A stretch of DNA of 64,000 bases, taken from the human T2T-CHM13v2.0 reference genome, Homo sapiens. Where the stretch lies: NCBI RefSeq assembly GCF_009914755.1, contig NC_060933.1. One strand, given 5' to 3'. Positions 38,713 through 40,625 of the stretch are shown piece after piece. The position numbers and the translations under genes were made by a program. The stretch's first letter is position 1. Each line of letters opens with the position of its first letter. The notes under the pieces are model-generated. The model made no database searches. It saw nothing but the letters and a program-made list of their open reading frames with translations, and was not told the origin of the DNA.

Positions 38713-39188
38713 GAAGTAATAATCAGTTATCATTCATACTGATTTGTCAGCCTTCTTTTGGTGAAGTCTCTCGCTTTTTATTTTCAAGAATTTCAAGGGT
38801 CTGAGTAAAACTGGCCCCTAACCCTCAAGAACTAGATGGGGATAGATAAAAAAGTTTTTTATATAGTCAAGCTTTGTGAGTGTTACTGGTCACTGACTCT
38901 CCTCTTATGAGGTCCCTCTCTTACATAAGCAATATGATTAAAACTGATGAAATATTTGTGTACATTATATTCAAAGAGGAGGAGCAGTTGCAGCATATTT
39001 TGTATTTTGTAGGCTTTTATTTTATTTTGTATTTTTTGTTCCTAATGCTTAGTTTTCTCAAGCTTTTTACTAAATGACATTTTGAGTTGATCTGAGAGTT
39101 TAATCTTTATTTCTAGATGTCAGGATTTCAGTGGTTCTTTTAAAAATAATCAGCTCTACTGCTTACTCTGATTAATTATTTTCCCTAG

Positions 39189-39304
39189 GCCTCAGGATCA
39201 TTCAGCTCAGCAAACAAATACCGCTGGAAGCAATGTTACTACATCATCAACTCCTGATAGTAACTCCATATCTGGTTCTGCTACTGGCAACCCTTTTGGT
39301 TTAG
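39189..39304 (+). pseudogene. Duplicated (unprocessed) copy of UBQLN1 exon 3
   Basis: ttattttccctag|G CCT CAG GAT...GGT TTA G|gtgtct; 116 nt encoding [38 protein letters not shown] vs recalled ubiquilin-1 [38 protein letters not shown] (35/38); no other UBQLN1 exons recognised in the window. Confidence 0.88.
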
Positions 39305-39767
39305 GTGTCTTTAGTCATTCCAATAGAAATGCAAAAAAATACCCCTTTCTGTTTCTGGGTAGTTTCAGATAAAATGAGAAAATAAAACTTTATGTCACTT
39401 TAACAACAAAAATCTTAAAAACTAATTTATATAGTCCTACAATTGTAGATATTAAGGAAGTGGTTGGGGATATGGATGTCCTGGGTTACCTTACATTTAA
39501 TAAGTGGTCAATAATTGGCACATTTCTTTTTAATAATGAAAAAGATGCAGTGTATGTATACCTGATCTGACTACCACATAATTTAGCATGAGTAAGATTA
39601 GTTAATTGTTCATCATAAGCCAGCACCTCTGAGTAATAATTTTCTCATTTGTAAAATGAAGGGATGGGACTGCATTAGTTATTTTTGTAACTGTCCTGAA
39701 TACATGGAAGGGCTGGGGCCTGGGAAGCCAGCCCAGCCTAAAACTGCTTTTACTTTTCTTATAGTCG

Positions 39768-40001
39768 TTTTTTTGTTTGTTTTTTGTTTTGTTTTGGTTT
39801 GGTTTGGTTTTTGTTTTTTAGTTTTTTGGTTTTCTTTAAGAGAGGCAGGATCTTGCTCAGTCACTGAGGCCAGAGTGCAGTGGTGCCATGATAGCTCACT
39901 GCAACCTCAAACTCCTGACTTATGGGATCCTGTTGCCTTGGCGTCCCAACCTACAGCATCTATAATGCTGAGGTTACAGATGTGAGCCACTGCGCTTGGC
40001 C
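39768..40001 (-). mobile_element. Partial AluJ
   Basis: T-rich tail then degenerate antisense Alu. Confidence 0.8.
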
Positions 40002-40625
40002 TATATTAGATTTATATATTGAGGTTCTGTGGAAGATTTTGTTGAGGATGAAAGTACTCTGAAGCTTAACAGAAGTTGAAGTAGATAGATAAATGGCTTA
40101 ATGCTTCTTTTGATTCTTGTATGACTAGTATAGCACCCTGAAATGGCATATTTATGCACAGTTTTTACATATCAATGATCATGCCTTTTATCTCTTCCAT
40201 AAGATTAATTCAGTTGTGCCATGCCAAATGTATGTTAGAGGCATTTAAGGTATGGCATGGCTTGACATAGGTTCACATTCACTGTTAGTTTTGTTTTAAA
40301 TGTTTCCTGTCCTTATTTTCCAAAAAGATCTTGTGTTAAGTCTTTTGATTGAGGAAGGTGTGTTTTAGTTGTCAAAAATTATTCATATGAACAATCTAGA
40401 GAAATTAGGATGAAATGATTTAGTGTTCAGACCTATGAAAGGTATTGTTGAGGTAATTCTCTCCTGTCTTCCTTCATGTTATAGGCAGAGATCTTGAATC
40501 AGAAAGAGGCTTTTAGTTATTTTGTCAGAGGCTACGCAACCCCCATATCCCTTCATTTCTAGTCTCATTCCCACATCCTCCTTCTATCTCTGCAGCTTTT
40601 CTCCATCAATTAATTCATCAATTAA

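What the first reader, a model, noticed from the sequence alone, without database searches (positions are those of the whole stretch)
38713..40600. Orphan unprocessed copy of UBQLN1 exon 3 with intron-like flanks, 5.6 kb upstream of IDNK and in the same orientation
Seen: a 116-nt exon (39189-39304) with an intact polypyrimidine/AG acceptor, a weak GT donor (AG|gtgtct) and an open frame, embedded in ~1.9 kb of mostly non-repeat, intron-like DNA that interrupts an antisense L1M series. Recalled knowledge: the peptide is 35/38 identical to ubiquilin-1 just after the UBL domain, and UBQLN1 is the neighbouring minus-strand gene beyond IDNK. Inference: a DNA-level inverted duplication of a UBQLN1 intron2-exon3-intron3 piece, not a retrocopy (splice sites kept, no poly-A or TSD). 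The ORF track misses it because it has no ATG. It could be spliced into upstream + strand or IDNK read-through transcripts, and it could cause read mis-mapping or false UBQLN1 exon-3 variant calls (N>D, T>I, S>G).
Basis: partly seen in the sequence, partly recalled or inferred. Interest (0 to 1): 0.8.

Follow-up and report, generated by a model that had tools for sequence, protein, structure and literature searches.

The report
Dead duplicate of UBQLN1 exon 3
A 1.3-1.6 kb stretch upstream of IDNK is an old, inverted, primate-age copy of one exon of the neighbouring UBQLN1 gene with pieces of its two flanking introns, and it looks like an ordinary dead gene fragment with a broken splice donor.

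Summary
The core observation holds. Window 38713-40037 (+) aligns collinearly to the minus strand inside UBQLN1, at window-scale 105893-104007, about 65 kb away. The match covers the end of intron 2, the third of 11 coding exons and the start of intron 3. It has no other copy in the genome. The exon copy (39189-39304) differs at 5 of 116 bases (N134D, T138I, S144G plus two silent changes). Introns differ at 106 of 1104 sites (K2P 0.104). Homology spans 1.3 kb (1.6 kb with the Alu at the left junction), not 1.9 kb; 40038-40625 is unrelated unique DNA. The acceptor is intact. A 4-bp deletion removed the parental GTAAGT donor, so modelled U1 pairing falls from -12.4 to -5.1 kcal/mol. Two Alus with target-site duplications lie in the parent where the orphan keeps the empty sites, and Alu-derived DNA is shared by both copies. 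The event is therefore primate-specific, roughly 35-50 Myr old on recalled rates. There is no poly-A tail and no flanking target-site duplication. The left breakpoint lies in or at an Alu that may be chimeric. The right one abuts the tail of another parental Alu. I read it as a neutral unprocessed pseudogene fragment made by a local templated insertion. Interest is low.

The parts
38160..38419 (.). Left flank: an old interspersed repeat that ends where the insert begins. It is not part of the duplicate.
   Evidence: 40 matches scored of 1824 candidates, at 70-78% identity, all ending at query 643-671 (= 38392-38420); in 3 of 3 fetched loci the match ends at 38411-38419 and nothing downstream matches the window.
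38417..38712 (+). Full-length Alu with its A-tail at the left junction. It occupies the same position as the parental Alu (window-scale 105900-106194). It may be chimeric, with a resident 5' part and a parental 3' part.
   Evidence: the A-tail and the 3' target-site duplication (AAGTAATAATCAG) match the parent. The 5' target-site duplication and upstream homology are absent; 14.2% non-CpG divergence, 0 shared derived bases, rank 28 of 38; 41/171 differences 5' of 38600 against 11/91 3' of it (Fisher p=0.023; ratio exceeded by 4.2% of 733 unrelated pairs; change-point permutation 621/5000, not significant).
38713..39188 (+). Copy of the 3' part of UBQLN1 intron 2. It carries the empty sites of two Alus that later inserted in the parent, and an intact polypyrimidine/AG acceptor.
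   Evidence: differences are 12/131, 21/248 and 0/84 (the last 84 nt before the exon); the 13-nt (38844-38856) and 11-nt (39131-39141) target sites are single here and duplicated around the parental Alus.
39189..39304 (+). Copy of UBQLN1 coding exon 3 (codons about 111-150). It has 5 of 116 differences: N134D, T138I, S144G and two silent changes.
39305..39310 (+). Crippled splice donor. A 4-bp deletion turned the parental AG|GTAAGTGTCT into AG|GTGTCT.
   Evidence: Alignment; modelled duplex with the U1 5' end is -12.4 kcal/mol for the parent and -5.1 for the orphan.
39305..40037 (+). Copy of the first ~645 nt of UBQLN1 intron 3. It includes an antisense Alu-derived fragment (about 39770-39992) present in both copies.
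   Evidence: 73/641 differences; 39806-39950 hits many Alu loci at 72-87%.
40038..40625 (.). Right flank: unique DNA with no UBQLN1 homology.
   Evidence: the only other match, to window 55515-55597, covers 40626-40704. (nothing in the window or the UBQLN1 locus). (best local score 10, against a shuffle mean of 10.9).

Best explanation
This is a non-functional, unprocessed pseudogene fragment of UBQLN1. In an anthropoid ancestor, about 1.3-1.6 kb of UBQLN1 was copied in inverted orientation into intergenic DNA about 65 kb away, upstream of IDNK. The copied piece runs from an Alu in intron 2 through exon 3 into the first ~645 nt of intron 3.

The most likely route is a local DNA-templated insertion: a replication template switch or ectopic break repair. 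On this model, synthesis was primed by homology between an Alu at the recipient site and the Alu in intron 2. It ran through exon 3, stopped at the T-run/(TA)n tail of the next parental Alu, and the end was rejoined without homology.

Since then the copy has drifted neutrally. It lost its GTAAGT donor to a 4-bp deletion and took three amino-acid changes, while the parent gained two more Alus.

Shown: homology, orientation, extent, uniqueness, exon identity, the donor deletion, the order of Alu insertions relative to the duplication, and the absence of retrocopy hallmarks.

Inferred: the template-switch mechanism, the chimeric Alu, the age and the lack of function.
For: - Three collinear minus-strand blocks lie inside UBQLN1, and there is no other genomic copy.
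- Only exon 3 of the 11 coding exons is present in the window.
- The nearest paralog is only 56% identical.
- Exon differences are 5/116 against 106/1104 for introns. This fits a constrained parent and a drifting copy: P(<=5 | copy-only rate) = 0.52.
- At T138I and S144G the X paralog agrees with the parent, so the orphan is the changed copy.
- The 4-bp deletion removes GTAA from the donor, and modelled U1 pairing falls from -12.4 to -5.1 kcal/mol.
- The open frame has no ATG, and RefSeq gives no exon here (hub table).
- Two parental Alus are flanked by target-site duplications that are single in the orphan.
- Both copies share an Alu-derived fragment, and the orphan carries the A-tail and 3' target-site duplication of the parental intron-2 Alu.
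- There is no poly-A and no target-site duplication at the ends.
- Homology stops exactly at the first base of a full-length Alu on the left. Its 5' two-thirds are as diverged from the parental Alu as unrelated Alus are, while its 3' third is as similar as the flanks.
- On the right, homology stops at the tail of another parental Alu.
- Template switching at Alus that leaves a chimeric Alu is a described route (passages of PMC6071635).
Against: - The chimeric-Alu signal is weak. Change-point permutations give 118/2000 and 621/5000. The cut at 38600 was chosen after looking at the data. Alu versus introns at non-CpG sites gives p=0.054.
- There is no Alu at the orphan's right junction, so this is not a classical two-Alu rearrangement.
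- No genome without the insert was available, so the recipient site before the event is unknown.
- A 118-nt run (39105-39222) across the acceptor has no substitution (P=0.0035 at the copy-only rate before correcting for choosing the run). This is more conservation than simple drift predicts. It could mean gene conversion or constraint.
- Absence of transcription rests only on RefSeq annotation.
Confidence: 0.62

Rival explanations
1. RNA-derived patch (class 2 templated sequence insertion). A fragment of unspliced UBQLN1 pre-mRNA was reverse-transcribed and used to fill a double-strand break, then joined by end-joining without a target-site duplication or poly-A. The outcome is the same dead fragment.
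For: - The insert is in the sense of a transcribed gene and keeps its introns.
- There is no target-site duplication, no poly-A and no poly-A signal at the 3' end, and the donor locus is intact.
- These are the class 2 features given in PMC5110952 (abstract and sections 5, 8 and 9 read). That paper lists intronic sequences among templates.
Against: - Donor and recipient are only about 65 kb apart on one chromosome, whereas such patches are described as coming from distant regions.
- Homology ends exactly at the first base of a full-length Alu, which would be a coincidence for a random RNA fragment.
- The 5' part of that Alu is unusually diverged from the parental Alu.
Confidence: 0.15
2. Remnant of a larger inverted segmental duplication of the UBQLN1 region, most of which was later deleted or replaced.
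For: Inverted local duplications are common. An isolated 85-89-nt duplicate (40626-40710 against 55515-55603, 91%) of similar divergence lies 590 nt to the right. This hints at a more complex history.
Against: - Whole-window against the 49.5-kb UBQLN1 locus gave 995 HSPs. Only 9 were low-copy, and only the two blocks of this segment exceeded 82% identity.
- No other UBQLN1 exon is in the window.
- Both ends are sharp.
Confidence: 0.08
3. A functional exonised copy. The orphan exon is spliced into an unannotated + strand transcript or a 5'-extended IDNK isoform, or acts as a splicing-factor decoy. This would explain the substitution-free acceptor region.
For: - The acceptor and polypyrimidine tract are intact, with 0 substitutions in 118 nt across the acceptor.
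- The frame is open for 66 codons.
- It has the same orientation as IDNK.
Against: - The donor is destroyed by a 4-bp deletion.
- There are 3 non-synonymous and 2 synonymous changes.
- There is no ATG.
- No RefSeq exon lies within 5 kb (hub table).
- The exon divergence matches neutral drift of one copy.
Confidence: 0.05

Closest known systems
Unprocessed (duplicated) pseudogene fragments
   Same: A genomic copy of part of a gene with intron sequence retained. It has no retrotransposition hallmarks, cannot encode the protein (1 of 11 coding exons, no start codon), and is decaying neutrally.
   Different: It is very small (one exon), inverted and only 65 kb from its parent. It is not in the RefSeq gene table supplied. 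The named pseudogene UBQLN1P1 is listed at 6p22.1 in a table of PMC11438911 (passage), so it is a different locus.
Alu/Alu-mediated rearrangement and replication template switching (AAMR, MMBIR/FoSTeS)
   Same: One junction lies inside or at an Alu that sits in register with the parental Alu. Its 5' and 3' parts differ in relatedness to the parent, as expected of a chimeric Alu (PMC6071635, passages). Donor and recipient are close together and inverted.
   Different: Described cases are mostly deletions or duplications bounded by two Alus. Here only the left junction carries an Alu in the orphan. The right junction merely coincides with an Alu tail in the parent. The chimeric signal is statistically weak.
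Class 2 templated sequence insertions (Onozawa and Aplan, PMC5110952)
   Same: A patch templated from elsewhere, with the donor intact and no target-site duplication or poly-A. Intronic sequence of a transcribed gene serves as template.
   Different: Those are described as polymorphic, from distant regions and probably RNA-derived. This one is old, local, and Alu-registered at one end. Whether it is fixed in humans was not tested.
Processed pseudogene / retrocopy
   Same: It derives from a protein-coding gene and is non-coding now.
   Different: Introns are retained, there is no 3' poly-A and no flanking target-site duplication, and only one exon is present.

Membership tests
Unprocessed pseudogene fragment | Homology to the parent extends into its introns | tested here: met
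   About 476 nt of intron 2 and 733 nt of intron 3 (orphan coordinates) align collinearly. K2P is 0.104 over 1104 sites.
Unprocessed pseudogene fragment | Cannot encode the parental protein | tested here: met
   Only 1 of 11 coding exons is present in the window. The 66-codon open frame has no Met. The donor is deleted.
Unprocessed pseudogene fragment | Not transcribed or spliced | not testable with these tools
   Only the supplied RefSeq table, which has no exon between 18313 and 44739, was available. No RNA data were held.
Processed pseudogene / L1-mediated retrocopy (also class 1 templated insertion) | Introns removed, 3' poly-A tail, flanking target-site duplication | tested here: not met
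   Introns are present. The sequence after 40037 starts TTTGTTGAGG, with no A-run. No direct repeat flanks 38417 and 40037. The only A-run (38700-38713) is the tail of the Alu.
Segmental duplication (usual catalogue rule, recalled: at least 1 kb and at least 90% identity) | Length at least 1 kb and identity at least 90% | tested here: inconclusive
   Length is 1325 nt (1621 with the Alu). Substitution-only identity is 90.4% in introns and 95.7% in the exon. BLAST identity with gaps is 81-90%. It therefore sits at the threshold.
Alu/Alu-mediated rearrangement | Chimeric Alu at the junction | tested here: inconclusive
   5' part 41/171 against 3' part 11/91 differences (p=0.023, cut chosen post hoc). 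The ratio of 1.98 is exceeded by 4.2% of 733 unrelated pairs. Permutation change-point 621/5000. 0 shared derived bases.
Alu/Alu-mediated rearrangement | Both breakpoints in Alu elements | tested here: not met
   The right junction in the orphan (40037|40038) has no Alu. Only the parent has an Alu tail there.
Class 2 templated sequence insertion | No target-site duplication, no poly-A, donor intact, end-joining type junctions | tested here: met
   Junction microhomology could not be judged without the empty site.
Class 2 templated sequence insertion | RNA intermediate | not testable with these tools
   Nothing in the sequence tells an unspliced-RNA patch from a DNA template.

The most novel reading that the evidence does not exclude
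The orphan keeps a working 3' splice site. The 118 nt across the acceptor carry no substitution after tens of millions of years. On this reading the site is used, either as an alternative or poison exon of an unannotated + strand transcript or a 5'-extended IDNK isoform through a cryptic downstream donor, or as a decoy for factors that bind the UBQLN1 exon-3 acceptor. It would then be a primate-specific regulatory link between two ancient neighbours.
Probability: 0.05. Interest if true: 0.45.

Novelty: new member of a known kind. Interest (0 to 1): 0.2.

Why it matters
Mostly housekeeping. It is a UBQLN1 exon-3 look-alike that the supplied RefSeq table does not list, 65 kb from a gene studied in neurodegeneration. 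Primer, probe and short-read designs for exon 3 and its acceptor should take it into account, because the longest exact shared run is 53 nt.

It also preserves the state of UBQLN1 intron 2 before two Alu insertions. It is a tidy fossil of a small local templated insertion with one junction in an Alu. None of this would surprise a specialist.

Tried and rejected
- PDB sequence search with the 39-aa peptide gave 0 matches at E<=10. It was no help with naming.
- Another ubiquilin paralog as source is rejected. The next best match is the X-linked intronless gene at 56%.
- Retrocopy is rejected.
- A read-through Pol III transcript from the Alu, carried along as 3' flank, would explain the exact start at the Alu's first base and the end at a T-run. 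I rejected it by inference: several T-runs visible inside the segment in the sequence should stop Pol III, and there is no target-site duplication or poly-A.
- Independent insertion of an Alu at the same site in the orphan is rejected. There is no 5' target-site duplication and no upstream homology.
- Homology beyond the right breakpoint, past the parental Alu: none found.
- The test of whether the left-flank repeat continues to the right of the insert ('interrupts an L1M') gave no continuation in 3 of 3 fetched copies.
- The change-point tests for a crossover in the Alu were not significant. In one search the strongest change point was instead at 39104, where the substitution-free stretch starts.
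- Literature:
  - UBQLN1 + IDNK gave 4 papers. Passages of one (PMC4230246) were read and covered only synteny; the other 3 were seen only as search listings.
  - UBQLN1P1 / 'UBQLN1 pseudogene' / 'ubiquilin 1 pseudogene' gave 4 papers, all for UBQLN1P1. In the one I read it is listed at 6p22.1.
  - UBQLN1 with N134D, T138I or S144G gave 0 papers.
  - So these searches found nothing in print on this fragment. Subscription journals and supplements were not searched.
- Earlier findings of this scan were not open to the session.

Full report
**What is there**

The sequence at 39189-39304 is preceded by a pyrimidine-rich tract ending in CCCTAG and followed by GTGTCT. Frame 1 of the block has stops. 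The frame that starts at 39190 is open and gives a 39-residue peptide. The stop-to-stop frame is 39172-39369, 66 codons, with no Met.

A search of the window's own genome with 38713-40700 returned the query itself and three collinear minus-strand blocks on the same chromosome. In window-scale coordinates they are:
- 38714-38856 against 105893-105752
- 38844-39141 against 105439-105133
- 39131-40037 against 104828-104007

All three lie inside the span the hub gives for UBQLN1 (81692-129669, minus strand). All but one of the other 45 rows were hits at 72-87% to query 1059-1288 (most within 1096-1237), an Alu-like stretch; the remaining row is the short match to 55515-55593 noted below under Extent and edges. 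Repeating the search with only the unique part (38720-39780) gave 4 rows: the query itself and the same three blocks. The peptide finds 3 places in the genome: itself, the UBQLN1 exon (92%) and an intronless 754-codon open frame on the X chromosome (56%).

**Which exon**

I took the 624-aa ORF of the X-linked paralog from the genome and ran it by tblastn against the 49.5-kb UBQLN1 locus. It gave ten blocks in order. The exon in question falls between the second block (107849-107697) and the third (101701-101477), so it is the third of 11 coding exons.

The same query against the whole window hit 39187-39306 (57.5%). Its only other hit was a chance-level row (46598-46708, 35% identity, E=1.3). 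No other UBQLN1 exon was copied.

A splice model with the ATG at 129390, an exon-1 donor after 129211, exon 2 at 107849-107698 and exon 3 at 104768-104653 puts the first Pro of the peptide at residue 112. Four models passed the filters. This one matches the tblastn extents. The three amino-acid differences are then N134D, T138I and S144G. At the last two the X paralog agrees with the parent, so the orphan is the copy that changed.

**How alike**

| Segment | Differences | Source |
|---|---|---|
| Exon | 5/116 (3 replacement, 2 silent) | |
| Intron 2, 38720-38856 | 12/131 | |
| Intron 2, 38857-39104 | 21/248 | |
| Intron 2, last 84 nt before the exon | 0/84 | |
| Intron 3 | 73/641 | |

Pooled introns give 106/1104 differences (71 transitions, 35 transversions, K2P 0.104) and 17 indel events.

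The exon is less diverged than the introns (P(<=5) = 0.035 at the two-lineage rate). It fits a model in which only the orphan drifts while the parent is held by selection (P = 0.52). The run 39105-39222 has no substitution and one 2-bp indel. Its probability is 0.0035 at the copy-only rate before allowing for having picked the run. I treat this as a mild oddity: chance, a short gene-conversion tract, or constraint.

**Splice sites**

The acceptor is the parental one, apart from that 2-bp indel 17-18 nt upstream. The donor is not merely weak. The parent reads AG|GTAAGTGTCT and the orphan AG|GTGTCT, a 4-bp deletion that removes the consensus. A simple duplex model with the 5' end of U1 (motif recalled) gives -12.4 kcal/mol for the parent and -5.1 for the orphan. 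RefSeq lists no exon between 18313 and 44739 (hub table).

**Extent and edges**

Homology covers 38713-40037, not 38713-40600.

*Right edge.* The orphan reads ...GTGGAAGAT|TTTGTTGAGG. The parent reads ...GTGGAATAT, then (AT)n, a T-run and an antisense, 5'-truncated Alu (103995-103776). Nothing beyond matches. This was checked by blastn with 7-nt words against the window and the locus, and by a local alignment whose score of 10 was below the shuffle mean of 10.9. 40038-40625 is unique in the genome. 40626-40710 resembles 55515-55603 at 91%.

*Left edge.* A full-length Alu (38417-38712) sits exactly where the parent has one (105900-106194).
- The A-tails are followed in both copies by the same sequence.
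- The parental Alu is flanked on both sides by a target-site duplication (AAGTAATAAT-A). The orphan has it only after the A-tail.
- Upstream of 38417 there is no homology.
- That upstream flank is an old repeat whose copies elsewhere end at the same point (40 scored of 1824 candidates; 3 of 3 fetched loci).

**Is the junction Alu the parental one?**

I aligned 39 Alus from the window and the UBQLN1 locus and masked the CpG columns of their consensus.
- The orphan and parental Alus differ at 32/226 sites (14.2%).
- The median over all pairs of the 39 Alus is 12.1%.
- The parental Alu ranks 28th of 38 by closeness to the orphan Alu.
- The two share no derived base.

The difference is uneven along the element. 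At non-CpG columns it is 25/147 up to 38600 and 7/79 after it, and the latter matches the flanks. Over all columns it is 41/171 against 11/91 (Fisher p=0.023). That ratio of 1.98 is reached by 4.2% of 733 unrelated Alu pairs. Change-point permutation tests were not significant (118/2000; 621/5000), and the cut was chosen after looking. The reading 'resident 5' part joined to parental 3' part' is therefore suggested, not shown. Either way the left breakpoint is in or at the Alu.

**Order of events and age**

- The orphan carries the A-tail and 3' target-site duplication of the parental intron-2 Alu. It also carries an Alu-derived fragment (about 39770-39992) that the parent has too. Alu-bearing DNA was therefore copied.
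- Two further Alus in the parent (105732-105441 and 105131-104832) are each flanked by a direct repeat (13 nt and 11 nt) that is single in the orphan. They inserted after the duplication, and the orphan preserves the empty sites.
- Since Alus are primate elements (established knowledge), the event is primate-specific.
- With K2P 0.104 and recalled neutral rates of about 1.0-1.5e-9 per site per year, the age is roughly 35-50 Myr. This is an inference. No other primate genome was available to test it.

**Mechanism**

The features are: no poly-A or target-site duplication at the ends, introns retained, an intact donor locus, an inverted orientation, a distance of 65 kb, one junction in register within an Alu, and the other at a parental Alu tail.

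I favour a local DNA-templated insertion primed by Alu homology and ended by non-homologous rejoining. This could be a template switch during replication or ectopic repair synthesis. Alus are known substrates for such switches and leave chimeric Alus (PMC6071635, passages).

A patch reverse-transcribed from unspliced pre-mRNA (class 2 templated insertion; PMC5110952, abstract and sections 5, 8 and 9) would give the same product. It explains neither the proximity nor the exact stop at the Alu's first base. A remnant of a larger duplication is unlikely. Of 995 HSPs between the whole window and the UBQLN1 locus, 9 were low-copy, and only the two blocks of this segment exceeded 82% identity.

**Consequences**

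- The fragment cannot encode anything like ubiquilin.
- Its use as an exon is unlikely given the donor deletion, but this is untested.
- Mis-mapping is a minor risk. There are 5 mismatches in 116 nt and indels at both exon edges, and the longest exact shared run is 53 nt, ending at 39221. Primers or short probes placed on the acceptor side could, by inference, bind both loci.

**Known or new**

- IDNK-UBQLN1 adjacency is ancient (PMC4230246, passages), but that paper does not mention this fragment.
- UBQLN1P1 is listed at 6p22.1 (PMC11438911, passage).
- Searches for the locus, for a UBQLN1 pseudogene and for the three paralog differences found nothing on this fragment.
- It is an ordinary small unprocessed pseudogene fragment that the supplied RefSeq table does not list.

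**Verdict**

The size and the functional consequences were overstated. Interest is low.

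Noticed in passing
window 40626-40710 and 55515-55603: An isolated 85-89-nt direct duplicate at 91% identity, with only these two copies in the genome. One copy ends where the Alu at 40706-41048 begins. The other lies in an IDNK intron. Its divergence is similar to that of the UBQLN1 fragment, so it could belong to the same complex event or be a rare old repeat.
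   Followed up: partly
window-scale 105732-105441 and 105131-104832 (UBQLN1 intron 2, loci L011/L003): Two antisense Alus with clear 13-nt and 11-nt target-site duplications. The orphan copy holds the matching empty sites, which gives an in-genome before-and-after record of two Alu insertions.
   Followed up: yes
window 39105-39222: 118 nt across the orphan's acceptor and the first 34 nt of the exon have no substitution against the parent (one 2-bp indel), while the neighbouring intron differs at 8.5-11%. This may be chance, a gene-conversion tract or constraint.
   Followed up: partly
window 38160-38419: About 260 nt of an old, high-copy interspersed repeat (1824 candidate loci, 70-78% identity). 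Its family ends exactly at the start of the junction Alu.
   Followed up: partly
L020 (G000:C23:55856500-55859800): The X-linked intronless ubiquilin paralog has a 754-codon stop-to-stop frame, 624 aa from its first Met. It served here as an outgroup and for mapping exons.
   Followed up: yes
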